NCBI RefSeq assembly: GCF_000218625.1
Contig: NC_015672.1
Coordinates: forward strand, 1,647,451 to 1,711,450
Length of the DNA stretch: 64,000 bases
Source of the DNA: Flexistipes sinusarabici DSM 4947
GTDB taxonomy: Bacteria; Chrysiogenota; Deferribacteres; Deferribacterales; Flexistipitaceae
Reading direction: 5' to 3'
Shown: positions 3,602-64,000 of the stretch, in pieces
Position numbering within the stretch: position 1 is the stretch's first letter
Layout of the letters: each line of letters begins with the position of its first letter
Notes under the pieces: generated by a model
What the model saw: the letters and a program-made list of their open reading frames with translations, nothing else
Told to the model about the DNA's origin: nothing
Database searches by the model: none
Position numbers and translations under genes: made by a program

Positions 3602-3623
3602 TTAACCACCGACTTTTGATCAA

Positions 3624-9754: not shown

Positions 9755-9766
9755 ATCAAAGAAAAC

Positions 9767-10770: not shown

Positions 10771-10827
10771 AAGTTTATTATATCATAAAATACTTTAAAT
10801 TGAACAAAAATCAGGAGGTTTACTCAT

Positions 10828-32393: not shown

Positions 32394-32510
32394 GAGAGTG
32401 AGATAGTGAGGTAGGGAAATAGTGAGATATTGAGGTAGGGAAATAGTGAAATAGGGAGATAGGGAGATAGGGAATTAGGGAATTAGGGAGATAGGGAATT
32501 AGAGATGAGT
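32394..32510. repeat. C-free degenerate minisatellite with G3 tracts ((A)TAGGGA(R)T / TAGTGAG units)
   Basis: About 115 nt immediately after the SPFH gene stop with no C. gggagatagggagatagggaattagggaattagggagatagggaa. Confidence 0.7.
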
Positions 32511-48425: not shown

Positions 48426-48442
48426 AAAACTCCTTTAGCAAA

Positions 48443-48790: not shown

Positions 48791-48819
48791 CTCCTTTTTA
48801 ATATACTCACACGGCTGAG

Positions 48820-48834
48820 CGTCGAAATCTGACG
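48820..48834. promoter_or_regulatory. CGTC-N7-GACG palindrome (cgtcgaaatctgacg) in the divergent promoter region
   Basis: Seen in sequence. Lies between the 48443(-) and 48878(+) genes. Confidence 0.45.
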
Positions 48835-48877
48835 TATATTTCTTTTAAATTAAAGATGATTTATTTAGGAGGTTTTT

Positions 48878-49510: not shown

Positions 49511-49570
49511 ACACTGCAATTCCATTTTCTATTGAGCTTCTTGAAATCCATATAAAATTATTTCACAAAA

Positions 49571-50068
49571 CTATTCCACTTCAATAACATTTGTTTTCTC
49601 AATACTAAATACTTCTTTTAATTCAGCTAATGTGCGTAATTTCACATCATTAACTTTTAAATATTTCATATAATTCTTGAATCCAGAGTCAGTTTTAAAT
49701 TCTTTCAAAATTTCCAGGTAGAATTCAGGAAAATATTCTGATTCATAGAAAAATTCACACTCTTTCAAGTGCCCTTTATTATCCGTATGAAAAATGAATA
49801 TCCCGATATTTGAGAAAAACAAGAAATAATCATCTGCTGAAAAAATACCTTCCTTTTCTGACATTGTATTGAGGTAAAAAGTGCCGCAACATTTTCCATA
49901 AAATTCATCATTTTTATCAGATATGCATTCACATATTCCGGTAATAAAAGAATTTCTAAGTTCGTTATTTAATTTTTCCTGAGAAATTTCATTGCAGGTT
50001 TTGGATAACAAGAAAATTATAAAATCATACATCTGCTTAAATTTAACTATTTCTACAGACTTCTTCAC
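49571..50068 (-). CDS. Hypothetical protein, 165 aa, Cys-rich (CECISDKNDEFYGKCCG)
   Basis: ORF with RBS. Confidence 0.45.
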   Translation of the reverse strand: MKKSVEIVKFKQMYDFIIFLLSKTCNEISQEKLNNELRNSFITGICECISDKNDEFYGKCCGTFYLNTMSEKEGIFSADDYFLFFSNIGIFIFHTDNKGHLKECEFFYESEYFPEFYLEILKEFKTDSGFKNYMKYLKVNDVKLRTLAELKEVFSIEKTNVIEVE

Positions 50069-50105
50069 AAAAACCTCCTAATAAATGATTAAGCTTGAAT
50101 TTAAA

Positions 50106-50603
50106 TTAGTCATCATCCCACTCACTTACCCCAGCTTTCTTGCCGGTTTCTCCAGTATCCCATAGCAAAACCATGTTTTCTACTCCGCCTTTCTTCACAT
50201 CTGTCCCTATTTGAATATTACCCAGTTTCTTTGATTTGATATAAAGAGTAATTCCAAGCATACTATCATAATCCAGTATACCATCGTATTCCTCAACTTT
50301 GACAGCTTCATTTGTCTCCACATTTTCATAGACAAACCTACTGCCGCTGATAAGATTTACCTGCTCTTCGTCGTCAATAGACTGAAATCCGGTGTTCCCC
50401 GCAGCTACCATATCCAGTACTTCTCCAGTAAGATTTACTAAAAACACATCATCTACCATATTTTTTTCACTATTAGTCCTTACAAGCCAAAGCAAAGGTT
50501 TTCTTTCCTCTACCTTATCAGACAACGGAAAAACAAATCTACCCTTTTGTTCGTGTGGCGGAGTCCAGTTAAACTGGTCTTTTACTCGTTTTTGTTTACT
50601 CAT
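50106..50603 (-). CDS. Hypothetical protein, 165 aa, acidic C-terminus (WDDD)
   Basis: ORF with RBS ggagga. CGTC-N7-GACG palindrome in its upstream region. Confidence 0.45.
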   Translation of the reverse strand: MSKQKRVKDQFNWTPPHEQKGRFVFPLSDKVEERKPLLWLVRTNSEKNMVDDVFLVNLTGEVLDMVAAGNTGFQSIDDEEQVNLISGSRFVYENVETNEAVKVEEYDGILDYDSMLGITLYIKSKKLGNIQIGTDVKKGGVENMVLLWDTGETGKKAGVSEWDDD

Positions 50604-50702
50604 ACTTCCTCCTTTTAAGTTTTTTGGGTTTATTGATAAATAATGAAATCGTTAGGATTTTGAAAAAGAATTATCTTTTCAAATGTAAAATAGTTCTTTA
50701 AT

Positions 50703-50719
50703 ACGTCAGAATCCGACGT
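50703..50719. promoter_or_regulatory. ACGTC-N7-GACGT palindrome (acgtcagaatccgacgt) upstream of the 50106..50603 gene
   Basis: Seen in sequence. Confidence 0.45.
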
Positions 50720-50972
50720 TAGAAATTAAAATTACAGAAAAAAACAAGGTGTCTTTATGCAGATTCATGCAAAAATCGTCAAGCTCTTCTTCTGTCATAT
50801 CAAGGATTTCTCTCTTTTTAGCTATATCTTGGGCATAAGAATAAAAAAATTCTCTGTATTTTTTATCTTTTGTAATATCAGAAATGAGACTCAGTTTTTG
50901 TTCCAGATCAAGCTGTGAAACAAGCTCTTTTATCTGGTCATACTTAATTTCAATTTCTTTTAGTTTGGGCAT
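50706..50972 (-). CDS. Hypothetical small protein, 88 aa
   Basis: ORF, probably a helical protein. Confidence 0.35.
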   Translation of the reverse strand: MPKLKEIEIKYDQIKELVSQLDLEQKLSLISDITKDKKYREFFYSYAQDIAKKREILDMTEEELDDFCMNLHKDTLFFSVILISNVGF

Positions 50973-51174
50973 AATTTACTCTCGAATAACAACATGTATT
51001 TATTATAATAAATTTAAATTTACAAAACCATTATTTCAATATTAATAATACACTCACACTTTATTTACTACATTACAAAAAAAACAAATTATTTATTTTT
51101 TCGTATTTGGATAATTATTATTGAAATACGAAAAATAGTTGCATTGTTCATTCTTATGAATTAAAATAAGTATT

Positions 51175-52578
51175 ATGAATACACCAGACTTTCTGAACAG
51201 AGAAAAAGAGCTGAATTTTCTACATTCACAATTTGCAAGAAAAGAAGCATCGTTTATCGTTATTTACGGAAGAAGAAGGGTTGGCAAAACATCCCTTATC
51301 AAGGAGTTTATAAAGGATAAGTCTTCACTGTTTTTTATGGCGGACAAACAGTCAGAAAAAGGCATTCTTGACAGATTTGCAAAAACAGCATCAACCTTTT
51401 TAGAAGATGAGTTTTTAGAAAAATTGACATTTAATTCCTGGGAAGATTTTTTTGGTTATATAACTCAGAAACTCGATGAATCAAAAAAATATGTTCTTGT
51501 AATAGATGAGTTTCAATACCTGCCGGATATAAACCATGCTTTTCCTTCTATATTACAAAGGATATGGGATGAAAAGCTAAAAGACAAAAATATAATGCTG
51601 ATATTGTGCGGATCTTTGATAAACATGATGTATTCTACTACATTAAGCTACCAGAGTCCGCTTTATGGCAGAAGGACCGGGCAGATAAAGTTAGATCCAA
51701 TCTCATTTGATTATTGTCATAATTTTTTCCCCAACATTGATGAGCGAAAACTTATTGAATATTATTCAGTAACAGGAGGAATTCCGAAATACATGGAGAT
51801 GTTTGATGCAACCAATGATATTCTTTATGATATAAAAACAAATGTTCTCTCAAAAAACAGTTATCTTTACAACGAACCACGGTTTATCTTAAACGAAGAG
51901 GTTACTGAAACAGCAACATATTTTTCTATACTTAAAGCGATAGCAGCAGGGGAACATAAAATTGGAAAAATTGCATCCATAGTGGGCGTTAAAACGAATG
52001 TGCTGGCAAAATATTTTAATGTACTGGCAGATTTGCAGATAATAGAAAGACAGGTGCCTGTAACAGAAGAAAATCCTGAAAAAAGCAAAAAGGGCTTATA
52101 TTTTATCAAAGATAATTTTTTCAGATTCTGGTTCCGCTACATATTCCCCTACCAAAGTTTTTTAGAAATTGAAAGAGATGACGTAGTGTTAAAAGAGATA
52201 CAAAAAAGTTTCAATATTTTTGTTAGTTTTGTTTATGAAAACTTGTGTCTGCAAAAGATTCCCGATCTTACCCAGAATGGTGTTATTAATTTCAAAATTG
52301 AAAAATGGGGTAGATGGTGGAGCAAGGATGAGGAAATTGATATAGTAGCTACAAGCAAAAAAGATAAAAATATCTTGTTTGGTGAATGCAAATGGAGCGA
52401 CACACCCATAGGAGTGAGCGTTTATGCTGATTTAAAGGCTAAAGCAAAAAATGTAAAATGGCACACAGATGAAAGGAACGAGTATTATATTCTTTTTTCA
52501 AAGTCAGGCTTTACAGAAGATTTAATGGATATAAATGAAAAAACAAGCAGTCTCATCTTAATCGACAGCATCGTATAA
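51175..52578 (+). CDS. AAA+ ATPase (archaeal-ATPase/DUF234 family) with C-terminal PD-(D/E)XK-like region
   Basis: Walker A GRRRVGKTS. Walker B VLVIDEFQYL. C-terminal EEIDIVA...GECKW. Confidence 0.7.
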   Translation: MNTPDFLNREKELNFLHSQFARKEASFIVIYGRRRVGKTSLIKEFIKDKSSLFFMADKQSEKGILDRFAKTASTFLEDEFLEKLTFNSWEDFFGYITQKLDESKKYVLVIDEFQYLPDINHAFPSILQRIWDEKLKDKNIMLILCGSLINMMYSTTLSYQSPLYGRRTGQIKLDPISFDYCHNFFPNIDERKLIEYYSVTGGIPKYMEMFDATNDILYDIKTNVLSKNSYLYNEPRFILNEEVTETATYFSILKAIAAGEHKIGKIASIVGVKTNVLAKYFNVLADLQIIERQVPVTEENPEKSKKGLYFIKDNFFRFWFRYIFPYQSFLEIERDDVVLKEIQKSFNIFVSFVYENLCLQKIPDLTQNGVINFKIEKWGRWWSKDEEIDIVATSKKDKNILFGECKWSDTPIGVSVYADLKAKAKNVKWHTDERNEYYILFSKSGFTEDLMDINEKTSSLILIDSIV

Positions 52579-52677
52579 AAATATTTAAGGCTTAAAAATT
52601 AACGGGTTCTCAAGCTCAGCATTTTGGTCTGTAATTACAAAAATTCAAAGATAAGATAATTATATCTTAAACTGCAA

Positions 52678-52692
52678 CGTCAGGTATTGACG
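52678..52692. promoter_or_regulatory. CGTC-N7-GACG palindrome (cgtcaggtattgacg) upstream of the AddB-like gene
   Basis: Exact reverse complement of 59053-59067. Same motif class as 48820 and 50703. Confidence 0.5.
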
Positions 52693-52779
52693 CATCTTTG
52701 TGCCAATAAAAAACCAAGAAAGATTTTCGTTTAGATGTAATAAATGCTATAATTTGCAATTATTTATTGTGGGTGAATC

Positions 52780-55700
52780 ATGAAATCAGTCTTAAAGTCT
52801 TTGGAAAACATCTGTTCTAAAAATATTACAAAGCGAAAAATACTTGTGATGCCGAGTTACACAGAAGGCTTAAGCCTATTGAATGCTCTTGCTCTTAACA
52901 ATGTAAATATCGCCAATATAAAAGTAGAAACACCCTTAAGTCTCGCAAAAGATATTTCAAAAATGAGCCTATATAAATCCGGCAAAGATTTTTTAGACAG
53001 ATCAAGTGCAAGATATGTTGTTTTAAACTTATTTAACCAGCTTCTGACAGAGAATAAGCTTAAATATTTTCAACAATTATCACCATCTGTAGGGGTAATC
53101 AGTGAATTGGAAAACGTTTTATATGAACTCAGAATTACAGATTACACCCATATAAATTTTCCTGTAAATTCTTTTATAGATCCTGAAAAAGAACACGACA
53201 TTAAAACATTACTGCAAAAATACGAAAACTATCTTGAAAATAATAACCGCATCGATGAGCCAGGTTTGTATAAACATAGCATACAAATGTTGCAAAAAGA
53301 CAGCTTTCATAAAGACAAGCTTTTTCTGATACCGGCTAATCTGGAACTGCCTTTACTCTCCAAAAGTTTTATCTCAATGCTTACGAAAAATAATCATGAA
53401 ATTATAAAATTCGCACAATTAAAAAGCTTAAATGTCCCTGAAAATTATTACTCAAATAATCCATATTCGGATACAATAGATAACTGCTTCAGCTGGCTTT
53501 ATGAGCTTAATAATTCCGAAAATTTGGACAAAAACCCCGGTTTTGAAATATACAGAGCATACGGCGAGTCAAATGAAGCCAAAAAAGTGATAAGAGTACT
53601 CAAGAGAGATGCAATAAATCTTGATGATGCTGTTATTTATACGACCTCTTCCCAACTGTATAATCAAATTCTCTATGATTTATCATGCACATACAATATT
53701 CCCATGACTTTTGAGGAAGGGATAAGTGTATCAAATACTTCTCCCGGTAAGCTTTTATTATCAGTTCTGGAATGGATTTCAGAGAAATACAGTGTTCCAA
53801 AATTTTGTACAATGTCCACAGGGGGATTTTTCAAATTTAGCAACAATGAAATCTCACCATTAAAAATAAGTAAAATACTTAAAGAAAGCAAGATTGCCTG
53901 GGGCAAAAAACGGTATAAAAAAATATTGGAGAATGAGTTAACGAACACTACAAATGATTATAAAATAGAAATTTTAAATGTCGTTCTTTCAGAGCTTAAT
54001 AGTATTTTTGACGAAATACCCGATACAGAAAACACTTCATCTATATCTTTATCTGAGTTTTCGAAAGGCTTAGTAAACATACTAAACAAACATACCCGAA
54101 TAAGAAATGAGACAGACGCATCAGCTTTAACCACACTTACCGAAAATCTTTCAAACTTGGCAGATTATTCAACACAGGAATTTCAGGAAAAAGAAATAAT
54201 AAAGATGCTTAAAAAACTTGTATATGGCATTAATATTAATGCCTCCTCAGCCAAGCCCGGTCATATTCATGTCACTAATTTTCAAAACGGAATCTGGCAT
54301 AACAGAAAGCACAATTTCATTTTAGGTCTTGATGCTGAAAAATTCCCCGGTAAAGGTGGTGAAAGCCCGTTTTTGCTTGATATGGAAAAGGAGCGTATTG
54401 GAAAAATTCAGACAAGTATTCAAAGGAAAAGCAGAAATATTTATAAAATGACAGAACTTCTTGCTAACACAAATGGCAAAATATATGCAATGTTCACCAA
54501 TTACGATACTGAGGCGGCGAGGCTCCAATCCCCATCCTCTTTACTACTGCAAATTTACAGACTACAGGAAAAGCTTGATAAAAGCACACCGGATAAAGAG
54601 CACATCGAAAGCTATCTGCCTTTTAAAAATAGTGAGAAAGAGATTCTTGATGAGACAGAATTATGGTTGCACAAAGCTTTTTATTCCGGTGGTATCAAAA
54701 ACAATGAAGAAATATTCCCTTCTGTTTACCCTGTATTTAATAAAGGTCTTTTTGCATTAAGTGAAAGGCAAAGCAGCATAAATGAGTATAACGGCTGTGA
54801 GTTAAACATAAGTGATGAAATTGTTAATAAATTACTTTATGAAAAGACCTTCTCAAACTCAAAACTTGAAACAATGGGCAGTTGTCCCCTCCGATTTTTC
54901 TTTCAACATATACTCTATCTAAAACCTCTTGAGGAATATGAGTATGACCCGTGGAGGTGGCTGGATCCTTTGGAAAGAGGAACGTTATTACACAGGATTT
55001 TTGAGCTGTTTTATAAAGAATTAATAAATAAAAAAGAAATGCCGGAATTAGATAAGCATATGGGTTTGTTAGAAAATATAGCAAAAACGGAAACTGAAGA
55101 ATTAAAAGATTTATTACAGCCTCCAAGTGAAACTGTATATGAAAGTGAATTTAATGAAATTTTAGATTCCTGCCGTATATTTCTCCAGAAAGAATCCACC
55201 AAATTATCCAAAGAAGGTCATCCTCTATATTTAGAGCTTTATTTCGGTAATTACCCCGAAAGTGAAGGTTCCAGTTTCCCGACGGCTGTGTTTACATTGC
55301 CATCAGGCAGAAAAATACAGCTTAGCGGTAGAATCGACAGGATTGATCAGTTAAATAACGGAAGCTATAAAATAATTGACTATAAGACAGGAAGTACCAG
55401 AGATTACAGCAGTAATGAATATTTCAAAAAGGGTAAACAGCTTCAACACGCTTTATATTCTTTGGCTTTCGAAAAGCTCATGGGGAATAAATACAAAATT
55501 TCACAATCCGGATACTATTTTCCAACAACCAAAGGCGAAGGCTCAGAATACATGTATCCACCAAGTGACGGAAAACATAAAAGAGAAGAAGTATTGGAAA
55601 TCGTTGACATTCTTCTTGATAATATTGAGAACCGTTTCTTCCCGCCCGTTAAGTATGATAACAAAAATGATTCATGTAGATTCTGCGACTATAAAGAGAT

Positions 55701-55797
55701 ATGCGATAGAGAAAAAAATGATTCATTAACAAAGATGCTGGAATATGAGGAAAACAAATACCTTCAAAATTACAGGAGGATTGAAAGCTATGAGTGA
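52780..55797 (+). CDS. addB: AddB/RexB-like helicase-nuclease subunit (no Walker A; RecB nuclease plus Fe-S cysteines)
   Basis: C-terminal PD-(D/E)XK (GRIDRIDQL...YKIIDYKTGS). Cysteines GSCPLRF...CRFCDYKEIC. Confidence 0.65.
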   Translation: MKSVLKSLENICSKNITKRKILVMPSYTEGLSLLNALALNNVNIANIKVETPLSLAKDISKMSLYKSGKDFLDRSSARYVVLNLFNQLLTENKLKYFQQLSPSVGVISELENVLYELRITDYTHINFPVNSFIDPEKEHDIKTLLQKYENYLENNNRIDEPGLYKHSIQMLQKDSFHKDKLFLIPANLELPLLSKSFISMLTKNNHEIIKFAQLKSLNVPENYYSNNPYSDTIDNCFSWLYELNNSENLDKNPGFEIYRAYGESNEAKKVIRVLKRDAINLDDAVIYTTSSQLYNQILYDLSCTYNIPMTFEEGISVSNTSPGKLLLSVLEWISEKYSVPKFCTMSTGGFFKFSNNEISPLKISKILKESKIAWGKKRYKKILENELTNTTNDYKIEILNVVLSELNSIFDEIPDTENTSSISLSEFSKGLVNILNKHTRIRNETDASALTTLTENLSNLADYSTQEFQEKEIIKMLKKLVYGININASSAKPGHIHVTNFQNGIWHNRKHNFILGLDAEKFPGKGGESPFLLDMEKERIGKIQTSIQRKSRNIYKMTELLANTNGKIYAMFTNYDTEAARLQSPSSLLLQIYRLQEKLDKSTPDKEHIESYLPFKNSEKEILDETELWLHKAFYSGGIKNNEEIFPSVYPVFNKGLFALSERQSSINEYNGCELNISDEIVNKLLYEKTFSNSKLETMGSCPLRFFFQHILYLKPLEEYEYDPWRWLDPLERGTLLHRIFELFYKELINKKEMPELDKHMGLLENIAKTETEELKDLLQPPSETVYESEFNEILDSCRIFLQKESTKLSKEGHPLYLELYFGNYPESEGSSFPTAVFTLPSGRKIQLSGRIDRIDQLNNGSYKIIDYKTGSTRDYSSNEYFKKGKQLQHALYSLAFEKLMGNKYKISQSGYYFPTTKGEGSEYMYPPSDGKHKREEVLEIVDILLDNIENRFFPPVKYDNKNDSCRFCDYKEICDREKNDSLTKMLEYEENKYLQNYRRIESYE

Positions 55798-58700
55798 TCA
55801 AGCTCTAAAGGACAGTCACGCAAGAAAGAAAATAATAAATGATCTTGATACAAATTTTTTAGTGGAAGCCGGTGCAGGTTCCGGTAAGACTTCAAGCCTT
55901 GTTAAAAGGATTACGTCTTTAATCACTAACGGAAAAAATAAAATCTCAGAAATAGCCGCTATTACTTTTACCAAGAAGGCTGCTTCTGAGCTTATGGAAA
56001 GACTTTTAAATGAATTGGAAGACCGACATAATTCAGAAACAGACCCTACCATAAAAGAGAACCTATATGATGCGATAAACAACTTTGACCAGTGTTTTAC
56101 CGGTACAATACACTCATTTTGCTCCGGCATATTGAGGGAAAGACCTGTGGAGGCTGGAGTTGACCCGGATTTTGATGAAATAGATGATTCAGACGAGTTT
56201 GGTTTGATTACTGAAGTCTGGAACGAGTTTATCAAGTCCACAAGAGCTGAGAATCCTGATATGCTAAAATTGACGGAGAAAATTGGGGTATCGCCTGAAG
56301 AGCTTCAGGATAGTTTTGTTATGCTGAATAAATATCCGGAAATCAAAATACACGCTGAAAAATCTGAAAAACCGGATTTAAAGCCTGCGGTTAAAAAAGT
56401 ATTAGAAATCTGTAAAGAGGCTTCAAAATACATTCCTGATGAAGAACCGGATAAAGGGTACGATGCTTTTCAGAAAAATGTGCAATCAACGCTCAGACTT
56501 TTAGAATATAGAAATCTCTATGAAGATAAGTATGCAATAGAAATATTAACAAAATTTGAGAAAACACCCAAAATAACACAAAACAGATGGCTTGATAAAA
56601 AAACTGCAAAAAATTTCCAGGATGTAATACTGCCGGATTTGGTTGAAAACACTGTTTATCCGGTATTAAGAAAACACAGGGAACATATTTATACTTATTT
56701 TATAGATTTTTTTCAAGATGCACTAACATATTATGAAAACAAGAGGAATCAGGAATCAATTCTGAATTATAACGATCTTCTGACACTTACCTCAAAGATG
56801 CTAAGAAATAATTCAAAAGTAAGAGAATATTTTCAAAATAAATACAAGACAACTCTGGTGGATGAGTTCCAGGATACCGATCCCATACAAGCTGAAATTA
56901 TCATGTATTTGACCGGAGAAGATTTAAAGGAAACCGATTGGAGTAAACTGAGACCCAAAAAAGGCTCACTTTTTGTAGTTGGTGATCCAAAACAGTCAAT
57001 ATACAGATTCAGAAGAGCTGATATAGATATTTATAACTTTGTAAAAGAAATTATTTCACAAACAGGCGGTGAAATACTCGAATTAACTTCCAATTTCAGA
57101 TCATTAAACAGCATAGCTGATTATCTCAATCCTGTTTTTGAAGAAAGGTTTCCTGAGAGTGGTGACAGGTATCAGGCACCTATGGCAAAGATCCGTGCAA
57201 TCCGTGAAAACAATTATGAACACGGTGTAAAAAAGATATTAGTCCAATGTGACTCCAGAAAAAAAGAAGATGTTGTTGAAATTGACGCTGAAAATATAGC
57301 AAGATATATAAAATATGCTGTAGACGGTGGAATAAAATTAGCCCGAAATGAGGAAGAAAAATCTAAAGGACTTAATGAGAAGCCTGTATATTCAGATTTT
57401 TTGATAATAACCAAACATAAAGATTTGCTGGAACAATATGCAAACACACTGGAAAAATACGGAATTCCTTCAACTGTAACCGGTGATGATTTTTTCAGCC
57501 AGTCAGAAGAGATAAACCATATTTATAAGCTCCTTAAATTTCTCAGTAAACCGGATGATGAGATACTCTTAGTATCAGTACTAAGAGGTATGTTTTTCGG
57601 TTTGAGTGATAATGACTTGTACCAGTTTAAAGCATCAAATGGGTATCTCAATATCTTTAGCAGTATACCGGAATCGCTGGATGAAAACATCAAAAATCTT
57701 TTTAATAACTGTTTTTCAACACTTCGCAAATATAAAAAGATTATCAATGAGTTGCCACCATCGTCAGCTTTGGAAACAATCTTTCAGGACTTAGGGATTT
57801 TACCCTATACATCACTGAAGAACTTATCAAAAAGCCGGGCTGCAAACATTTATTTTTTAATAGAACAAGTCAAACAGAAGGAAACTACCGAATTTTACTC
57901 ATTTGGAAATGTAGTCAACCATATAGGCAGATTGTTAGAGTCAAAATTTGAACAGAGAAACAGCCTCGAAGTTGAAAGCAATTGCGTGAGAATAATGAAT
58001 TTGCATAAAGCAAAAGGTTTGGAAGCACCTGTTGTTTTTCTTGCCCACCCTCACAAAAATACTAAACACGACCCAACTCAGCATATTAACAGACGAGAGG
58101 GCGAACCTATAGGTTATTTTGCACTAACTAAAAAGAAAGGGATACACCATAAAAAAATTTTTGCTCAACCTAAAAATTGGGAAGAATTCCAGGAAGAGGA
58201 ACAAAAATTTTTAGATGCTGAATTTGAAAGACTTGTCTATGTGGCAGCAACGAGGGCTAAAAATCTCCTTATAATAAGCTGTAAAGAAAAAGGCAATGGG
58301 AGTCAGAACCCCTGGCTGAGCCTGCTGGGTAATTTAAAAGATGACGATGTAATAGATGTACCTGATGTCAGTATAGAGCATGATTCAGGTGTAAATGAAT
58401 TATCCGTAAAAGATATAAATGATAAAAAAGCTGAGATCAGTCATTGGAGGCATTCTGTGTCAGAAGAGAATTATTCAAACATGACCCCCACAGAAGTAAA
58501 AGATTTGGAAAAAATATTTGCCGGTGAAAGGCTCGAAGGCGGCGGTCAGGACTGGGGTACCGCTGTGCATAATTTTTTAGAGTTTGCTGTAATGACCAAA
58601 GATACCGGATATGAGGATTTGGATACTTATATAAAATTTACTTTTGAAGAGCTGGATATAAGCTCTGACAGAACAGAGGAAGCTAAAAAAATAATAGAAG

Positions 58701-59038
58701 ATTTTAAACAAACAGACTTATTTAACCGAATAAAAAATGCCGAACAAGTGGAGACGGAAGCCCCCATTTCTATGAAAATTAATCCGGAATCCGAAATCAT
58801 GAATTTGTTTAATACTAAAACGAGTAACAAGCCTATAATCCTGGCAGGCGTAATTGACCTTGTGTTTAAAGAAAAGGACGGCTGGGTAATTATAGATTAC
58901 AAAACCGACAGAGTTAATTCCGAAGAAGAATATGAAAAACTCAGGCAGGCCTATTTAAATCAAGTGGAAATTTATGCAAAAGCATGGGAAGAGATAACCG
59001 GTGAAAAAGTAAAAGAGAAAAATATATACTTTGTATGA
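55790..59038 (+). CDS. addA: AddA/RexA-like UvrD-family helicase with C-terminal RecB nuclease
   Basis: Walker A AGAGSGKTS. Motif II LVDEFQDTD. Motif III GDPKQSIYRFRRAD. Motif VI VYVAATRAK. Nuclease GVIDLVF...IIDYKTD. Overlaps the addB stop by 8 nt. Confidence 0.8.
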   Translation: MSDQALKDSHARKKIINDLDTNFLVEAGAGSGKTSSLVKRITSLITNGKNKISEIAAITFTKKAASELMERLLNELEDRHNSETDPTIKENLYDAINNFDQCFTGTIHSFCSGILRERPVEAGVDPDFDEIDDSDEFGLITEVWNEFIKSTRAENPDMLKLTEKIGVSPEELQDSFVMLNKYPEIKIHAEKSEKPDLKPAVKKVLEICKEASKYIPDEEPDKGYDAFQKNVQSTLRLLEYRNLYEDKYAIEILTKFEKTPKITQNRWLDKKTAKNFQDVILPDLVENTVYPVLRKHREHIYTYFIDFFQDALTYYENKRNQESILNYNDLLTLTSKMLRNNSKVREYFQNKYKTTLVDEFQDTDPIQAEIIMYLTGEDLKETDWSKLRPKKGSLFVVGDPKQSIYRFRRADIDIYNFVKEIISQTGGEILELTSNFRSLNSIADYLNPVFEERFPESGDRYQAPMAKIRAIRENNYEHGVKKILVQCDSRKKEDVVEIDAENIARYIKYAVDGGIKLARNEEEKSKGLNEKPVYSDFLIITKHKDLLEQYANTLEKYGIPSTVTGDDFFSQSEEINHIYKLLKFLSKPDDEILLVSVLRGMFFGLSDNDLYQFKASNGYLNIFSSIPESLDENIKNLFNNCFSTLRKYKKIINELPPSSALETIFQDLGILPYTSLKNLSKSRAANIYFLIEQVKQKETTEFYSFGNVVNHIGRLLESKFEQRNSLEVESNCVRIMNLHKAKGLEAPVVFLAHPHKNTKHDPTQHINRREGEPIGYFALTKKKGIHHKKIFAQPKNWEEFQEEEQKFLDAEFERLVYVAATRAKNLLIISCKEKGNGSQNPWLSLLGNLKDDDVIDVPDVSIEHDSGVNELSVKDINDKKAEISHWRHSVSEENYSNMTPTEVKDLEKIFAGERLEGGGQDWGTAVHNFLEFAVMTKDTGYEDLDTYIKFTFEELDISSDRTEEAKKIIEDFKQTDLFNRIKNAEQVETEAPISMKINPESEIMNLFNTKTSNKPIILAGVIDLVFKEKDGWVIIDYKTDRVNSEEEYEKLRQAYLNQVEIYAKAWEEITGEKVKEKNIYFV

Positions 59039-59052
59039 GTTTTAAGAATTAA

Positions 59053-59067
59053 CGTCAATACCTGACG
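59053..59067. promoter_or_regulatory. CGTC-N7-GACG palindrome (cgtcaatacctgacg) after the AddA-like gene and upstream of vapBC
   Basis: Reverse complement of 52678-52692. Confidence 0.5.
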
Positions 59068-59163
59068 CAATCCTCTTTAATAATAATTTTCACTTGAAGA
59101 TTGCATAATAAGCTTAAAAAGTATATATTGAAGTATATACTTTTCAAAAAGGAGTTATTAATA

Positions 59164-59391
59164 ATGGATACTGCAAAAATATTTGAAAACGGAAAAAGTC
59201 AGGCTGTCAGGTTACCCAAAAAATACAGGTTTGACAGCGATGATGTGTTTATAAAAAAAATTGATGACATCGTTGTATTAATTCCTAAAGATAAAGTCTG
59301 GCAAATTTTTAGTTCATCTTTGGACAAATTTTCGGAAGATGTAGATTTTCAAAAAGACAATTCTATACCACAGGAAAGAGAAGAAATATAA
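59164..59391 (+). CDS. vapB: VapB-type antitoxin (AbrB/SpoVT-like)
   Basis: MDTAKIFENGKSQAVRLPKKYRF. Stop overlaps the PIN toxin start. Confidence 0.65.
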   Translation: MDTAKIFENGKSQAVRLPKKYRFDSDDVFIKKIDDIVVLIPKDKVWQIFSSSLDKFSEDVDFQKDNSIPQEREEI

Positions 59392-59793
59392 ATGTCTTAC
59401 CTTTTTGATACAAACATATGTATTTACATCATAAAAAATAAGTACAAACAAATTGCAAAAAAAATGCAGGAAGCTGGATTAGAAAAAATTTGTATCTCTG
59501 CTATTACCGTTGCAGAGTTAGAATACGGTATATCAAAAAGCTCCAAAAAGGACGAAAACAGGATTGCGTTGCTGGAATTCCTTATTCCGTTTACAGTATT
59601 AAATTTTGATCAAAATGATGCCAGAAAATACGGTCAAATCAGGTACAATTTGCAAAAAGCAGGCACACCTATTGGTAACATGGATTTGCTTATTGGATCC
59701 CAGGCTTTGGCAAGAGATATGACTCTGATAACAAATAACGAAAAAGAATTCAGCCGGATACAAGGGTTAAAAATAGAAAACTGGATTAAATAG
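59392..59793 (+). CDS. vapC: VapC PIN-domain toxin
   Basis: PIN motifs LFDTNICIY, ...TNNEKEF. Confidence 0.8.
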   Translation: MSYLFDTNICIYIIKNKYKQIAKKMQEAGLEKICISAITVAELEYGISKSSKKDENRIALLEFLIPFTVLNFDQNDARKYGQIRYNLQKAGTPIGNMDLLIGSQALARDMTLITNNEKEFSRIQGLKIENWIK

Positions 59794-59814
59794 AAATTTT
59801 ATACGGAGAATCTC

Positions 59815-60261
59815 ATGTCTGACATATGTTTTTTAAGACCAACAGCAGCAAAGCGTATTGAAAACTGGCTTAACAGCAACAATTACTCATTACATAACGG
59901 TTATTTTACGCTGGAGTACAATTTTTCTCCGATTGTAGATGATGGAATTATTCTGAGTTTTATTGATAACAAAACGGGCGATATTCACAAATTAGTTGTA
60001 CAGGATGATATTGAAGGTATTATTGAACCTGATGAAGAATGTTCAGTATCACAAATAAGTATTGATTACATCCCCCTATCCCTTGAGCTTACTCCGGAAA
60101 CTTTGGAAAAATTTTCAGAAATAGAATCAAGAAAATTTGAGGCGGAAGTTGAAGAGTTAGTAGAACCTGTAGGTTGCGGAATAAAATTTGAAATCTATTC
60201 AGACAGCTATGCAATTTTCGCCTGCAAAAAGGAATTGCAACGCACTCAAATCGGAGAATAA
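59815..60261 (+). CDS. Hypothetical protein, 148 aa
   Basis: ORF only. Confidence 0.4.
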   Translation: MSDICFLRPTAAKRIENWLNSNNYSLHNGYFTLEYNFSPIVDDGIILSFIDNKTGDIHKLVVQDDIEGIIEPDEECSVSQISIDYIPLSLELTPETLEKFSEIESRKFEAEVEELVEPVGCGIKFEIYSDSYAIFACKKELQRTQIGE

Positions 60262-60271: not shown

Positions 60272-61819
60272 TAGTTAACCCTGAAAAAGGTATATTTTCT
60301 TAAAATTTGCCAATATTTTTGTTTATTAAATGTAAACTATACATATATTTTGGCATACTTTTTATCCAGAAACACTTCGTTTGCAAAATTTGCTAATTTT
60401 TTTGCAATATTATCCATAAATTTTTTGAGAAAAAATAAAAGAAAGGCCAGTATCAGCCTTAGGTTATGACCACTTGCCGCCAAAATTGCATTAGCTTTAT
60501 CTCCCTCTTTGCCTTTCAGATAATTTCTGTCCATCCGGTTATCTCGCTTAGTATGACCTATCGTCGCCTCAACACAACTTCGTCTTTTCAATAACCTCTT
60601 AAAATTAACTTTGAATTTCTTCATACTGCGTGGAACTACATGGACTTTTGCATCCCCTCTATAATTGTGCTTCCTGTAACCCAAATCTACCAATATCGTA
60701 TCTATTGTACCGTTACTACCCAAAAGGGTTTTTGCTTCACATAAATTCTCTTCTAATGTATGACCGTCATAAGGATTGCCGTGAAATGATTTGCAACTCA
60801 GTATAAAATTCTTCTTCAATGTACCAACAAAACCTACTTTGTTACCAAACTCATACCTCTTATGGCTCTTGCCCTTGCTAATGCACTCAACCTCTGGACT
60901 GTGAAGACTGTAAAGTTTGTTCTTGCTCTTTTTACTCCGATTCCACAAACTCTCGTAAAATAACTTTAGCTGTTGAAACTCATCCGAATTCCTCAATTCC
61001 TCAGGTAAAACCCTTTCTATAGAACGATATAATTTGCCCATCTTTGTCTTCATCTTTTTTACTGCCTTACCCGCTCTCTTGTACTGTTTCGCATGAACAT
61101 AGCCACTATATTTCATCAATAGCTTCTTGCCGGAATATTCATGTGTCTCCTTTAACCTTATCTCATGCTTCTTTGAAAATTTCACAAGATATTTGATCAT
61201 TGTATAAAAAAGTTTTATGTCCGTTGGAAACGTTATGTTCTTTTCCTGCACCGTCGTATCTGCAGCTACTTTCTTTACGTCATTCTTATTAAGATAACCA
61301 CTACGAAAAGCAGTGTTAATTGTCTCCTCTAAAAACTTCAACAAATCTTCTTCTTTTAAACGATTCCGAAATCTTGTCATGCTGGTTGGATTTATCGGCA
61401 CCTTTGTCTGGAATACCTTTTCTCCAGTGAAGTACTGCCAGTAAGGGTTTTCTTTCCAGCCATGCACCACGTCTTCATCACTCAAATTGTACGTGTATTT
61501 CAAATAATGAAACCCAACCATCATACGCATTGGAATTCCTGGGCGACCATCGTTACGGTGATAAAGACTGCCAAATTCTTTCTCAAAATATTCCCAGTCT
61601 ATTTTATCTGCTAATTGTATTAATGGATGTTTCATATCTATAATGTTAACAAGCAGTGGTTCTAAAAGCTCTTGTGTCGTCGAATCTTGCTTCTTAGGAC
61701 GCATATAATCCCCCGGGTTTTTTGCTTATTCCTTTACTTTTCTGTGGGATTACTTTAGCATATTTCCTTGGTTAACTCAAGTATTATCAAATAGTTATCT
61801 AGTTTCTCAGGGCTAACTA
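60272..61819 (-). mobile_element. IS5-family (IS1182-like) insertion sequence
   Basis: Terminal inverted repeats tagttaaccctgaaaaa (60272-60288) and tttctcagggctaacta (61803-61819). Single DDE transposase gene. Confidence 0.65.
60337..61704 (-). CDS. IS5-family DDE transposase
   Basis: InsH-N-like region (GRPGIPMRMMVGFHYLKYTYNLSDEDVV). DDE region (DLGY...NLRLIL). Confidence 0.8.
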   Translation of the reverse strand: MRPKKQDSTTQELLEPLLVNIIDMKHPLIQLADKIDWEYFEKEFGSLYHRNDGRPGIPMRMMVGFHYLKYTYNLSDEDVVHGWKENPYWQYFTGEKVFQTKVPINPTSMTRFRNRLKEEDLLKFLEETINTAFRSGYLNKNDVKKVAADTTVQEKNITFPTDIKLFYTMIKYLVKFSKKHEIRLKETHEYSGKKLLMKYSGYVHAKQYKRAGKAVKKMKTKMGKLYRSIERVLPEELRNSDEFQQLKLFYESLWNRSKKSKNKLYSLHSPEVECISKGKSHKRYEFGNKVGFVGTLKKNFILSCKSFHGNPYDGHTLEENLCEAKTLLGSNGTIDTILVDLGYRKHNYRGDAKVHVVPRSMKKFKVNFKRLLKRRSCVEATIGHTKRDNRMDRNYLKGKEGDKANAILAASGHNLRLILAFLLFFLKKFMDNIAKKLANFANEVFLDKKYAKIYV

Positions 61820-61885
61820 ACTAAATAAGCACTGTTTTTGAAAACTGCCGTCTGTCTTTAACTTCTGTTTGCTGTACTCTGTTAT

Positions 61886-62121
61886 GTCGTAATCCCTTCA
61901 AAACATTTGCGCAATATCTCATCGCAAATGTTTCTGTTCAGAGCTTGCTGGAAATCAGGTCATTAATTCCAATAGTATATCTTAACTTAACAAATGGATT
62001 AGAAGACTTTTGTCGTAATCCCTTCAAATCAGGTCATTAATTCCAATTCGGGTGCTGCGTATTATGCAACTGCTCCCACGGAAGGGGTCGTAATCCCTTC
62101 TAATCAGGTCAATTCCGAAAA
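61886..62121 (+). CRISPR. CRISPR mini-array A: interrupted first repeat, one canonical repeat, degenerate terminal repeat
   Basis: 36-nt repeat GTCGTAATCCCTTC(T/A)A(A/G)TCAGGTCAT(GG/TA/GA)ATTCCAAT. Spacers of 38-39 nt. Terminal repeat degenerate (gtcgtaatcccttctaatcaggtcaattccgaaaat). Confidence 0.8.
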
Positions 62122-62318
62122 TAGGTTTTAGGTTTTAGGTTTTGGGTTTTAGGGAAAGCAGGGTTGCAAATCTTTCGAGCAGGGAATTGGCTTCGCCAAC
62201 GTATCTCGTCTCACGCAAAAAACAACTAAAGCTGAAAACAAATAATCTTTGAAATCTACGTGAACATTAAAAACGTTGAACATTGAACGTGGAACGCTGG
62301 CACGACAGTGCCAGATCT

Positions 62319-62774
62319 GTTGTAATCCCTTCAAAACCCAGCCATCATATAATCGGCTGGGTTTCTGGTCCGAGCTTGCTGGAAATCAGGTCATGGATTC
62401 CAATGGTATAGATAATAAAAAAATTGTCCATGTATTTGATATAGTCGTAATCCCTTCTAATCAGGTCATTAATTCCAATAATAAACTATCCAAGAACTTT
62501 TGGAATTGAGATAGAAGTCGTAATCCCTTCAAGTCAGGTCATGAATTCCAATTGGTTCAGTACAAAAATAGCCATAAAAAAGCCATTAAAAGTCGTAATC
62601 CCTTCAAGTCAGGTCATGAATTCCAATATCCGACCAAATTCCATGGTCGGAGCTCTCTTCAGCTATGTCGTAATCCCTTCAAGTCAGGTCATGAATTCCA
62701 ATAAATTTCCGGACTGAGGCAATTAGGATGGCAAAAAAAGTCGTAATCCCTTCTAATCAGGTCAATTCCGAAAA
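62319..62774 (+). CRISPR. CRISPR mini-array B: leader copy 1 (62110-62318), interrupted first repeat, 4 repeats, degenerate terminal repeat
   Basis: Repeats at 62319-62404 (86 nt, interrupted), 62444, 62517, 62592, 62667, 62740 (degenerate). Spacers of 37-39 nt. Confidence 0.85.
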
Positions 62775-62971
62775 TAGGTTTTAGGTTTTAGGTTTTGGGT
62801 TTTAGGGAAAGCAGGGTTGCAAATCTTTCGAGCAGGGAATTGGCTTCGCCAACGTATCTCGTCTCACGCAAAAAACAACTAAAGCTGAAAACAAATAATC
62901 TTTGAAATCTACGTGAACATTAAAAACGTTGAACATTGAACGTGGAACGCTGGCACGACAGTGCCAGATCT

Positions 62972-63433
62972 GTTGTAATCCCTTCAAAACCCAGCCATCA
63001 TATAATCGGCTGGGTTTCTGGTCCGAGCTTGCTGGAAATCAGGTCATGGATTCCAATGTTGAAGCACTCGGCGCAGTTCTATCTTTTGAGCAGAGTCGTA
63101 ATCCCTTCTAATCAGGTCATGGATTCCAATAGAGAGATTTCTCCATTTCCTAAATTTAATACAGTTGATGTCGTAATCCCTTCTAATCAGGTCATGGATT
63201 CCAATCTTCCGGAGGGTTTTAGATTTAAGTACCTCAAAGTCGAGGTGTCGTAATCCCTTCTAATCAGGTCATGGATTCCAATATATGTCGCCCAGCTCAT
63301 GGGCGGCAGGTTGCCGGAAGGGTCGTAATCCCTTCTAATCAGGTCATGGATTCCAATTACACAACTAAAACAGATACTTTGATTATTGTCTTTTCCTAGT
63401 CGTAATCCCTTCTAATCAGGTCAATTCCGAAAA
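62972..63433 (+). CRISPR. CRISPR mini-array C: leader copy 2, interrupted first repeat, 4 repeats, degenerate terminal repeat
   Basis: Repeats at 62972-63057 (interrupted), 63095, 63170, 63247, 63322, 63399 (degenerate). Spacers of 37-41 nt. Confidence 0.85.
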
Positions 63434-63630
63434 TAGGTTTTAGGTTTTAGGTTTTGGGTTTTAGGGAAAGCAGGGTTGCAAATCTTTCGAGCAGGGAATT
63501 GGCTTCGCCAACGTATCTCGTCTCACGCAAAAAACAACTAAAGCTGAAAACAAATAATCTTTGAAATCTACGTGAACATTAAAAACGTTGAACATTGAAC
63601 GTGGAACGCTGGCACGACAGTGCCAGATCT

Positions 63631-64000
63631 GTTGTAATCCCTTCAAAACCCAGCCATCATATAATCGGCTGGGTTTCTGGTCCGAGCTTGCTGGAAATCA
63701 GGTCATGGATTCCAATCTGAAGCGAATCAATTATATAAAAATTCTTTCTCTTCTGTCGTAATCCCTTCTAATCAGGTCATGGATTCCAATAGTGATGCGG
63801 GGTGGGTACGTCGGTTTGCATATCGAAAGTCGTAATCCCTTCTAATCAGGTCATGGATTCCAATACATCAAGAACAGAAAGCGCTGTTTGAAATGGCAGC
63901 TCGTCGTAATCCCTTCTAATCAGGTCATGAATTCCAATCAGGTTGCCGGAAGGGGCAACAACCCTTCCGGAGGGTTTGTCGTAATCCCTTCAAGTCAGGT
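63631..64000 (+). CRISPR. CRISPR mini-array D: leader copy 3, interrupted first repeat, at least 4 repeats; truncated by window end
   Basis: Repeats at 63631-63716 (interrupted), 63755, 63829, 63903, 63978 (truncated). Confidence 0.85.

What the first reader, a model, noticed from the sequence alone, without database searches (positions are those of the whole stretch)
63206..63977. Three spacers in two different arrays tile one contiguous ~92-bp protospacer region
The spacer at 63283 ends caggttgccggaagg, which begins the spacer at 63939. That one ends cttccggagggttt, which begins the spacer at 63206. The joint target is atatgtcgcccagctcatgggcggcaggttgccggaaggggcaacaacccttccggagggttttagatttaagtacctcaaagtcgaggt. 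Overlapping spacers from one locus in different leader units indicate repeated (primed-like) acquisition against one invader and functional adaptation at several leaders. The target contains a ccggaagg...ccttccgg hairpin.
Basis: seen in the sequence. Interest (0 to 1): 0.7.

Follow-up and report, generated by a model that had tools for sequence, protein, structure and literature searches.

The report
CRISPR spacers tiling an anti-CRISPR gene
Three overlapping memory units in a bacterial CRISPR array all come from the last 90 bases of a mobile-element gene of the family that shuts down type III CRISPR signalling, and relatives of this array are type III, so the host has repeatedly immunised itself against the invader's likely counter-weapon.

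Summary
Spacers 63283-63321, 63939-63977 and 63206-63246 overlap by 15 and 14 nt and merge into one 90-nt sequence (not 92).

The target was not found exactly in any database. Its frame +2 reads YVAQLMGGRLPEGATTLPEGFRFKYLKVE. This is the conserved C-terminus of a DUF1874/PF08960 protein, the AcrIII-1/Crn2 cA4 ring-nuclease family. It is 29/30 identical to metagenomic homologues and 79% to the tested anti-CRISPR of phage THSA-485A. DNA mismatches to homologues fall at codon position 3.

Related arrays have a 33/36-identical repeat and the same odd "long repeat". They lie beside a Prim-Pol–Cas1–Cas2 plus type III-A (Csm) operon with Card1 and Csx20. Their spacers are strongly sense-biased, so crRNAs come from the window's minus strand and are antisense to the acr mRNA. 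Two related arrays also carry DUF1874 spacers, one with a 38/38 protospacer.

The "several leaders" idea is not supported. The 318-nt units match the cas-distal flank of relatives, not their leader. Priming is not needed, because type III hotspots at early-transcribed genes plus selection explain the tiling.

This is ordinary CRISPR biology with a notable target. The window's own cas genes were not seen.

The parts
63283..63321 (-). Spacer Sb (39 nt). Its + strand is the sense strand of target codons YVAQLMGGRLPE, target positions 1-39.
   Evidence: 12/12 aa to P0001; 34/38 nt to L028
63939..63977 (-). Spacer Sc (39 nt). It bridges target positions 25-63 (RLPEGATTLPEG), the most invariant block of the family.
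63206..63246 (-). Spacer Sa (41 nt). It covers target positions 50-90 (LPEGFRFKYLKVE) and ends 1-3 codons before the stop in homologues.
   Evidence: 13/13 aa to P0003
61886..64000 (-). Composite CRISPR array: 12 complete ordinary 36-nt repeats plus one cut by the window end, 4 long repeats, 3 degenerate repeats and 16 spacers of 37-41 nt. It runs off the window end. The functional strand is inferred to be minus (repeat reads ATTGGAAT...GGGATTACGAC).
   Evidence: orientation
63399..63716 (-). 318-nt unit, copy 3, separating the Sa/Sb segment from the Sc segment. It consists of a degenerate repeat (63399-63431), about 199 nt, and a long repeat (63631-63716). Copies at 62087-62404 and 62740-63057 are 100% identical.
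   Evidence: homology to the cas-distal flank of relatives; no homology to their leader
62740..63057 (-). 318-nt unit, copy 2 (long repeat 62972-63057)
62087..62404 (-). 318-nt unit, copy 1 (long repeat 62319-62404)
61886..61973 (-). Long repeat of the second stem type (CATTTGCG/CGCAAATG), 97.8% identical to a long repeat inside related array L023. It is the cas-distal end of the array.
60337..61704 (-). IS5-family transposase abutting the cas-distal end of the array. It is context, not part of the immunity function.

Best explanation
The three spacers are separate acquisitions from the sense strand of the last ~30 codons of a DUF1874/PF08960 gene, the AcrIII-1/Crn2 cyclic-tetra-adenylate ring-nuclease family. 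The gene sits on a mobile element that is richer in GC than the host and is not yet in the databases searched.

The array belongs to a lineage that, in its relatives, is served by Prim-Pol(CAPP)-Cas1-Cas2. In those relatives it is used by a type III-A Csm complex with a Card1 effector and a Csx20 ring nuclease. The array is transcribed from the window's minus strand, so all three crRNAs are antisense to the ring-nuclease mRNA.

On entry of the element, the transcript of its anti-type-III gene would be bound by Csm. That would trigger Cas10 signalling, and the same mRNA would be cut (inferred from how type III-A works).

The tiling needs no priming and no extra leaders. It follows from the documented type III habit of taking and keeping spacers from early-transcribed genes in the transcript-complementary orientation. 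It is reinforced here because the 90 nt encode the most conserved part of a gene shared by many elements.

Shown: the overlaps, the identity and reading frame of the target, the cas content and orientation in relatives, their strand bias, and recurrent DUF1874 targeting. Inferred: that the window's own cas locus is the same, that the gene is expressed early, that it acts as an anti-CRISPR in this host, and the cause of the clustering.
For: - **Target identity.** Frame +2 of the merged 90 nt is open. tblastn hits the DUF1874 gene of phage THSA-485A at 79% over 29 aa, E 2e-8, on the gene's coding strand.
- **Family assignment.** A search of 5.8 billion proteins with the peptide gave 304 hits. 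All 120 listed carry PF08960, and the best are 29/30 identical.
- **Coding signature.** DNA identity to homologues is 57-72 of 90, and most mismatches are at codon position 3 of frame +2 (16/18 for L014, 16/20 for L028).
- **Experimental precedent.** The THSA-485A gene was shown to abolish cA4-dependent type III immunity (10.1101/778746).
- **Array type.** The repeat family lies next to csm1-5 + csx20. In L025 it follows CAPP-cas1-cas2-cas6-card1-cas10...csx20-leader. Csx20 is a cA4-specific ring nuclease (10.1101/2024.09.24.614671).
- **Orientation.** In 77 spacers of relatives, SD-like motifs number 14 on + versus 0 on -, SD+start 8 versus 0, and purine-rich 62 versus 14 (p 2e-8). All five DUF1874-matching spacers are sense on +.
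- **Recurrence.** Spacer u089 of L027 matches 38/38 inside the DUF1874 gene of contig L028, and three to four further spacers of that array hit the same contig. u042 of L026 encodes the family's N-terminus.
- **Conservation.** The tiled residues 63-92 have mean information 2.92 bits against 2.21 for residues 1-62 in 99 representatives.
- **Non-self check.** The 3' flanks of Sb and Sc match the repeat start at only 3/8 and 1/8 positions.
- **Known biases.** Selection gives strong strand and early-gene bias in Thermus (PMC7515739). A transcription-dependent, interference-independent early-gene hotspot exists in S. thermophilus type III-A (PMC13575424).
Against: - No cas gene is visible in the window. 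Type III-A membership rests on relatives whose repeat differs at 3 of 36 positions.
- The exact protospacer was never found. The element, its expression timing and its flanks are therefore unknown.
- Only the C-terminal third of the gene is seen, so the catalytic His cannot be checked.
- The native anti-CRISPR role of DUF1874 has been questioned for SIRV2 gp37, a middle/late gene (10.1101/2023.01.10.523387).
- The window's other 13 spacers show no clear strand signal.
- One spacer of L027 (u081) is antisense to the called gene in L028.
- The S. thermophilus hotspot peaks just after a promoter, whereas this tile is at the 3' end of a gene of roughly 280 nt.
- Enrichment of 5 in 93 is only suggestive. 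Only conserved targets can be recognised, and the three window spacers are not independent.
Confidence: 0.6

Rival explanations
1. Interference-coupled ('primed-like') local acquisition. A first spacer against the gene directs Csm/Cas10 to the transcription bubble, and the resulting local DNA damage feeds Cas1-Cas2. Further spacers are then taken within a few tens of bases and on the same strand.
For: - Sa and Sb are adjacent in the array and lie 10 nt apart on the target, and Sc bridges them.
- Two more same-strand tiled clusters exist among 93 spacers of this family.
- Three random spacers on a 12-kb element would tile with p of about 6e-5.
Against: - No priming is known for type III.
- The S. 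thermophilus type III-A hotspot was independent of interference.
- Cluster B is made of spacers from three different arrays, which priming within one cell does not explain.
- Given three spacers in one 282-nt gene, tiling has p of about 0.12.
- Integration orientation would still need selection. No PAM is shared by the flanks.
Confidence: 0.12
2. Multi-leader array. Each 318-nt unit is a working leader, so the three spacers entered at two different insertion points.
For: - Three 100% identical units are each followed by different spacers.
- Repeats next to a unit's long repeat share its 3' variant (TGGA) in two segments.
- The degenerate repeat lies at what would be the far end of each mini-array if it were read on the + strand.
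Against: - The units are homologous to the cas-distal flank of related arrays, where they stand in tandem without spacers.
- The conserved leader of relatives lies on the other side, next to csx20, and has no homologue in the window.
- Strand bias and the cas orientation put transcription on the minus strand.
- On that strand each unit starts with a hairpin plus U-run.
Confidence: 0.1
3. Cassette shuffling. The segments were assembled by recombination at the long repeats or units from arrays of different strains. Each strain had independently acquired one or two spacers against the same widespread gene, so co-occurrence in one array is secondary.
For: - Identical 318-nt units offer recombination substrates.
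- Repeat variants differ between segments.
- Long repeats occur inside related arrays.
- Related arrays at one locus share no spacers at all.
Against: The overlapping 29 bases are identical, so all three spacers come from the same allele. This reading is compatible with the best explanation rather than opposed to it.
Confidence: 0.15
4. Self-derived spacers. The 90 nt come from the host's own Crn2-type ring nuclease gene, as an accident or a regulatory loop.
For: DUF1874 proteins (Crn2) occur in a few type III loci. The rest of the genome could not be searched.
Against: - There is no copy in the 64-kb window.
- The target has 54% GC and 66% GC3 against 37% for the window.
- The related loci use Csx20, not Crn2.
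- The closest homologues sit in mobile-element contexts.
Confidence: 0.03

Closest known systems
AcrIII-1 / Crn2 (DUF1874, Pfam PF08960 STIV_B116-like), for example the duf1874 gene of Thermoanaerobacterium phage THSA-485A and SIRV1 gp29
   Same: The translated target aligns with the C-terminal 30 residues (GGRLPEG...LPEGF block): 79% to the THSA-485A protein and 29/30 to metagenomic members. It is carried by mobile elements.
   Different: Only the last third of the gene is known. The exact allele (GC3 66%) is absent from all collections searched. Enzyme activity and an anti-CRISPR role in this host are untested.
Type III-A (Csm) CRISPR-Cas with Prim-Pol (CAPP)-Cas1-Cas2 adaptation, as described for Marinitoga piezophila (PMC8211822)
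   Same: Relatives of the array have CAPP type A1, Cas1, Cas2, Cas6, Cas10/Csm1-Csm5, a CARF effector (Card1) and Csx20. Their spacers are 36-41 nt and strongly transcript-complementary.
   Different: The window itself shows no cas gene. The array is interrupted by three identical 318-nt units and by 86-88-nt long repeats, an architecture not described for these systems as far as I know.
Type III-A acquisition hotspots at early-transcribed phage genes (S. thermophilus, PMC13575424) and selection for early, transcript-complementary spacers (T. thermophilus, PMC7515739)
   Same: Repeated sampling of one short region, a same-strand outcome, spacers at gene starts in relatives (8 of 77 span SD+start), and independent arrays hitting the same site.
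   Different: Those systems use plain Cas1-Cas2 (plus Csn2-independent factors) rather than a Prim-Pol. Here the tile is at the 3' end of a short gene, and expression timing is unknown.
CRISPR targeting of plasmid leading regions and leading-region anti-defence islands (PMC3737333, PMC11541004)
   Same: The closest homologue of the target (29/30 aa) lies directly upstream of an ssb gene. It sits near a VirB4/TraC-type ATPase and an actin-like partition gene, a layout like anti-defence islands.
   Different: No oriT or relaxase was seen. Other close homologues lie in large phage-like contigs. The real source element is unknown.
Primed adaptation in type I systems
   Same: Several spacers from one small region of one invader.
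   Different: There are no type I genes in related loci and no shared PAM. Spacers are tiled within 90 nt rather than spread over kilobases, and overlapping spacers are also contributed by different arrays.

Membership tests
CRISPR array | Three or more near-identical direct repeats of 23-50 nt separated by unique spacers of similar length | tested here: met
   There are 12 complete 36-nt repeats with 0-3 substitutions (plus one cut by the window end) and 16 unique spacers of 37-41 nt.
CRISPR array | cas genes nearby | tested here: not met
   None among the 36 larger ORFs scanned, including those nearest the array. The array runs off the window end, so the side where relatives carry cas genes is not visible.
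Type III-A (Csm) system | cas10/csm1-csm5 operon associated with the repeat family | tested here: inconclusive
   Met in relatives L005 and L025, whose repeat is 33/36 identical and which share the same long repeat. Not testable for the window's own genome.
Type III-A (Csm) system | Spacers oriented so that crRNA is complementary to target transcripts | tested here: met
   Three of three DUF1874 spacers are sense on +. In relatives, SD motifs are 14:0 and purine-rich spacers 62:14. The cas operon is co-oriented with the minus-strand reading of the repeat.
Type III-A (Csm) system | No PAM; self/non-self decided by lack of pairing between the 8-nt crRNA tag and the target flank | tested here: met
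   The readable flanks share no motif. The 3' flanks of Sb and Sc match the repeat start at 3/8 and 1/8 positions. Only two flanks are readable on each side.
Type III-A (Csm) system | crRNA processing by Cas6 leaving an 8-nt 5' tag; mature crRNA on the minus strand | not testable with these tools
   This needs small-RNA sequencing. The repeat ends in ...GGGATTACGAC on the minus strand, like the Thermus repeat as I recall it.
DUF1874 / AcrIII-1 / Crn2 (PF08960) | Significant sequence similarity to family members | tested here: met
   E 2e-8 to the THSA-485A DUF1874 gene. E 9e-10 in 5.8 billion proteins, with all listed hits carrying PF08960. The 30-aa peptide alone is too short to reach the Pfam model.
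DUF1874 / AcrIII-1 / Crn2 (PF08960) | Target is a protein-coding sequence in that frame | tested here: met
   Mismatches to eight homologues concentrate at codon position 3 of frame +2 (14-23 of 18-33).
DUF1874 / AcrIII-1 / Crn2 (PF08960) | Catalytic His (His47 of SIRV1 gp29) and cA4 cleavage | not testable with these tools
   Only the C-terminal 30 codons are recorded in the spacers. The His lies upstream (GH motif at residues 37-38 of P0001).
DUF1874 / AcrIII-1 / Crn2 (PF08960) | Encoded by a virus or plasmid and active against the host's cA4 signalling | tested here: inconclusive
   Homologues lie in a phage, conjugative-type contigs, phage-like 100-kb contigs and a contig that is hit by a related array. 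Relatives of the host system carry Card1 and Csx20, which are cA4-linked. The actual source element is unknown.
Primed adaptation (type I) | Cascade/Cas3 machinery and PAM-flanked protospacers | tested here: not met
   No type I genes occur in related loci. Flanks are GCGG and AACC upstream, GGCA and TAGA downstream (read from the merged sequence).
Leader-repeat unit (functional CRISPR leader) | Homology to the conserved leader next to the first repeat of related arrays, upstream in the direction of transcription | tested here: not met
   The ~310-nt leader of L025 (318-nt query reaching 8 nt into the first repeat) has no match in the window beyond chance. The 318-nt units align with the opposite, cas-distal flank.

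The most novel reading that the evidence does not exclude
This Prim-Pol/type III-A lineage may systematically immunise against the anti-type-III gene itself. Five of 93 spacers in three independent arrays hit DUF1874 ring-nuclease genes, three of them tiling its most conserved 90 nt. The crRNAs would use the invader's earliest anti-defence transcript as the alarm and at the same time destroy the mRNA of the enzyme that would quench the cA4 signal. That would be a natural 'anti-anti-CRISPR' strategy, possibly sharpened by interference-coupled local acquisition.
Probability: 0.25. Interest if true: 0.7.

Novelty: new member of a known kind. Interest (0 to 1): 0.45.

Why it matters
If the reading holds, this is a natural case of type III CRISPR memory aimed at the gene family that disables type III signalling. 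It is seen three times in one array and again in related arrays. That gives a concrete, testable pair (crRNA and acr mRNA) for two questions. Does targeting an anti-CRISPR transcript protect cA4 signalling? Why do type III systems keep resampling the same short regions?

It also provides natural spacer data for Prim-Pol-associated adaptation modules, whose in vivo behaviour is unknown. Finally, it flags an unusual array architecture: long repeats with a structurally conserved hairpin, and repeated trailer-like units.

Tried and rejected
- **Exact-match scans for the target.** Three sub-patterns in IMG/VR and one in JGI metagenomes found nothing. blastn against INPHARED gave chance hits only. 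tblastn against PLSDB gave distant DUF1874 genes only. A back-translated search of IMG/VR gave two distant homologues.
- **Other GC-rich spacers of the window.** Scanned in IMG/VR with no hits. They also do not match any of the fetched element contigs.
- **Extending the window.**
  - Look-ups of the neighbouring 148-aa protein gave contigs that end at the IS or lack the array.
  - Look-ups of the IS5 transposase gave only ~1.5-kb contigs.
  - Look-ups of pseudo-ORFs inside the array found no record.
  - The genome collection holds only one related 6.7-kb MAG contig.
- **Rfam.** Nothing in 61700-64000.
- **Promoter/terminator consensus scan.** Uninformative.
- **Short query limits.** The peptide alone does not reach the Pfam model.
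- **Hairpin preference.** Spacers are only weakly more structured than random segments of element contigs (mean z -0.62 against 0.0 to -0.48; p 0.03-0.08 for the best controls), so no claim is made. However, the homologous 90 nt fold better than shuffles in 7 of 8.
- **Shared ending of spacer 62048-62086 and Sb.** They share only 8 nt (CGGAAGGG), which I judged to be chance.
- **Literature.** Searching for the Thermus 8-nt tag found nothing usable, so that comparison rests on memory.
Full report
**Observation**

The end of the window (61886-64000) is a CRISPR array with a 36-nt repeat, GTCGTAATCCCTTCTAATCAGGTCATGGATTCCAAT and close variants. It holds 16 unique spacers of 37-41 nt.
- Spacer Sb (63283-63321) ends with the 15 nt that begin spacer Sc (63939-63977).
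- Sc ends with the 14 nt that begin spacer Sa (63206-63246).

No other pair of the window's spacers shares 12 nt or more. By simple arithmetic, two such suffix-prefix matches among 240 ordered pairs have a chance of about 1e-6. Each spacer occurs once in the window even at 3 mismatches and is framed by full repeats. An assembly duplication or a host repeat within the window is therefore excluded.

**Genomic setting**

The 36 larger ORFs scanned, about 70% of those of at least 120 aa, are ordinary chromosomal genes. They include alaS, pckA, recJ, glpK, lysA and coaBC. Next to the array lie an AddAB-like pair, vapBC, a WYL regulator and an IS5 transposase. No cas gene was seen, and the array runs off the window end.

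Attempts to extend the locus through public contigs failed because assemblies break at the IS and at the array.

**What kind of array it is**

Scanning public collections with the repeat gave one MAG contig (L005). It also gave six metagenome contigs (L022-L027) that represent four distinct arrays. Their repeat is 33/36 identical to the window's. They share the window's peculiar 86-88-nt long repeat, and the copy at 61886-61973 is 97.8% identical to one in L023.

In L025 the gene order is:
- CRISPR-associated Prim-Pol (CAPP type A1), cas1, cas2
- a TPR/cold-shock-domain protein on the other strand
- cas6, then a Card1-type CARF nuclease
- cas10/csm1, csm2, csm3, csm4, csm5, csx20
- a conserved leader of about 310 nt, then the array

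The array is co-oriented with the cas genes when the repeat is read ATTGGAAT...GGGATTACGAC. That is the window's minus strand.

Independent support comes from the 77 unique spacers of the relatives. On the window's + orientation:
- 14 carry Shine-Dalgarno-like motifs, against 0 on the other strand
- 8 carry SD plus a start codon, against 0
- 62 of 76 are purine-rich (p 2e-8)

The + strand of the spacers is therefore the sense strand of the targets, and crRNAs made from the minus strand are antisense to transcripts. This is what type III interference requires. It is also what selection produces in Thermus type III arrays (PMC7515739).

Csx20 is a cA4-specific ring nuclease (10.1101/2024.09.24.614671). 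Card1 is a cA4-activated nuclease (my knowledge of Rostøl et al. 2021). The related systems therefore very probably signal with cA4.

**Identity of the target**

The 90 nt have no exact match in any collection searched:
- INPHARED phages
- IMG/VR
- JGI metagenomes
- PLSDB

Frame +2 is open and reads YVAQLMGGRLPEGATTLPEGFRFKYLKVE. tblastn finds the DUF1874 gene Tsac_2833 of Thermoanaerobacterium phage THSA-485A at 79% identity over 29 residues, E 2e-8. The hit is on the coding strand, at the C-terminus of the 102-aa protein.

A search of 5.8 billion proteins with the peptide returned 304 hits. A tandem copy was needed to reach the length minimum. All 120 listed hits carry PF08960, and the best are 29/30 identical.

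DNA identity to eight homologues is 57-72 of 90. Most mismatches fall at the third codon position of frame +2, for example 16 of 18 for L014 and 16 of 20 for L028. This is the signature of a coding sequence under purifying selection. The target has 54% GC and 66% GC3, against 37% GC for the window, so it is foreign in composition.

DUF1874 is the AcrIII-1/Crn2 family of cA4 ring nucleases. The THSA-485A gene itself was shown to abolish cA4-dependent type III immunity (10.1101/778746).

In an unbiased set of 99 family representatives, the tiled residues 63-92 are the best-conserved part: mean information 2.92 against 2.21 bits. GGRLPEG...LPEG is almost invariant, and Sc sits exactly on it.

The nearest homologues lie in mobile contexts:
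- a phage
- contigs with a VirB4/TraC-type ATPase, an actin-like partition gene and an ssb gene directly downstream
- phage-like contigs of about 100 kb

**The same gene is hit in related arrays**

Of 93 unique spacers in the family, five match DUF1874 genes, all in the sense orientation. They are:
- the three window spacers
- u089 of L027 (EMNRVNVSLSKG)
- u042 of L026, a probable hit (MEKKYLSNAFS, the N-terminus; 9/11 aa)

u089 matches 38/38 inside the DUF1874 gene of contig L028/L029. Further spacers of the same array hit that contig at 39/39, 40/40, 37/38 and 25/28, so it is a genuine target element. One of those four (u081) is antisense to the called gene.

The enrichment is suggestive only. 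The gene is at most 2% of that partial contig. Only conserved targets can be recognised, and the three window spacers are not independent events.

**Tiling is a habit of this family**

Besides the window's cluster there are two more. In the first, four spacers from three different arrays cover one gene start (SD + ATG) at offsets of 3, 8 and 21 nt. In the second, two spacers of L024 overlap by 17 nt with one mismatch.

Given three spacers in one 282-nt gene, a contiguous tile has p of about 0.12. On a 12-kb element it is about 6e-5. The real non-randomness is therefore at the level of the gene or region.

This fits published type III-A behaviour:
- In Thermus, positive selection leaves early-gene, transcript-complementary spacers.
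- In S. thermophilus, acquisition itself peaks just downstream of early promoters. It depends on transcription and is independent of interference.
- In S. thermophilus, chromosomal hotspots fall in the first 10-50 bp of ORFs (PMC13575424).
- Eight of the 77 relatives' spacers span an SD and a start codon.

**The 'leader units'**

Three 318-nt units are 100% identical: 62087-62404, 62740-63057 and 63399-63716. Each consists of three parts:
- a degenerate repeat
- about 199 nt
- a long repeat, which is an ordinary repeat split by a ~50-nt insert

They align with the cas-distal flank of the related arrays, where such units stand in tandem. The true leader of the relatives has no counterpart in the window.

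Read on the minus strand, a unit begins with the long repeat, whose insert folds into a strong hairpin followed by a U-run. The units are thus trailer-type elements, perhaps internal terminators or recombination scars. They are not demonstrated leaders. Sa/Sb and Sc lie in neighbouring segments of one composite array.

**Mechanism proposed**

A mobile element carrying a DUF1874 ring-nuclease gene met this lineage repeatedly. Prim-Pol-Cas1-Cas2 took spacers from the transcribed gene, and those in the antisense-crRNA orientation were kept. Because the 90 nt encode the most conserved block of a widely shared gene, and because type III tolerates mismatches (my knowledge), such spacers stay useful against variants.

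On re-entry, the anti-defence transcript itself would trigger Cas10 and be cleaved. The 3' flanks of Sb and Sc do not pair with the crRNA tag (3/8 and 1/8 positions). This is consistent with non-self recognition.

Inferred, not shown:
- the window's own cas content
- early expression of the gene
- its anti-CRISPR activity in this host, which has been questioned for SIRV2 gp37
- the cause of the clustering

**Comparison and novelty**

This is a CRISPR array doing what CRISPR arrays do, and the clustering has documented precedents. What I did not find in the literature searched is natural type III spacers directed at AcrIII-1-family genes. I also found no natural spacer data for Prim-Pol-associated adaptation modules. 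I therefore file it as a new member of a known kind, with moderate interest.

Noticed in passing
window 62087-62404, 62740-63057, 63399-63716: Three 100% identical 318-nt units interrupt the array. Each consists of a degenerate repeat (3-nt deletion), about 199 nt that begin with a GGTTTTA heptad run, and a long repeat. They are homologous to the cas-distal flank of related arrays, where they occur in tandem.
   Followed up: partly
window 61886-61973, 62319-62404, 62972-63057, 63631-63716; L026 about 1091-1178; L027 (array orientation, the reverse complement of the stored locus) about 1895-2108: 'Long repeats' of 86-88 nt are an ordinary repeat split by a ~50-nt insert. The insert holds a hairpin plus U-run on the crRNA strand. 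Two stem versions (CCCAGCC/GGCTGGG and CATTTGCG/CGCAAATG) differ at almost every position yet keep pairing (z -2.6 and -3.0). They also sit between normal spacers in related arrays. This resembles the long DR reported for type VI-B arrays (from memory).
   Followed up: partly
L025 (native coordinates) 3-12143: The related locus has a CRISPR-associated Prim-Pol (AEP-TOTE plus Gam-like domain) upstream of cas1-cas2. It also has a Card1-type CARF nuclease and csx20 in a type III-A operon. This is a natural spacer set for a CAPP-type adaptation module.
   Followed up: partly
L022-L027 spacers (one search list): Eight of 77 spacers span a Shine-Dalgarno motif plus a start codon, all in one orientation. 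Four spacers from three arrays tile one gene start. This fits the reported type III-A hotspot in the first 10-50 bp of ORFs.
   Followed up: partly
L028 1530-1620, 1780-1870, 2820-2880: The element targeted by array L027 carries repeated structured intergenic elements (...CCCCGGTACGGGGGATAACTGTCTCCTCCC...) upstream of several genes, including the region before its DUF1874 gene. One spacer (u080) lies on such an element. They may be regulatory or ssDNA-promoter-like elements.
   Followed up: no
merged 90-nt target and homologous segments in L013-L032: The target RNA folds into three hairpins (MFE -41 kcal/mol, z -4.7). The homologous 90 nt of 7 of 8 other DUF1874 genes also fold better than shuffles (z -1.8 to -4.6), although with different hairpins. 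Spacers of the family overall are only weakly more structured than controls.
   Followed up: partly
window 32381-32500: A tandem array of 8-nt units (AGTGAGAT / AGGGAAAT and variants, about 15 copies) lies immediately after the ORF 31608-32393.
   Followed up: no
window 47511-60261; L001/L002: The array is preceded by a defence-like neighbourhood: a WYL regulator, a DUF234 ATPase, an AddB/AddA-like nuclease-helicase pair and VapBC. In related contigs the same place holds an extra PLD-nuclease plus SNF2-helicase block, so it is a variable island.
   Followed up: no
window 60337-61704: An IS5-family transposase abuts the cas-distal end of the array. Identical copies are the reason public assemblies break here.
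   Followed up: partly
window 18162-22859: A 1565-aa ORF has no NCBIfam match.
   Followed up: no
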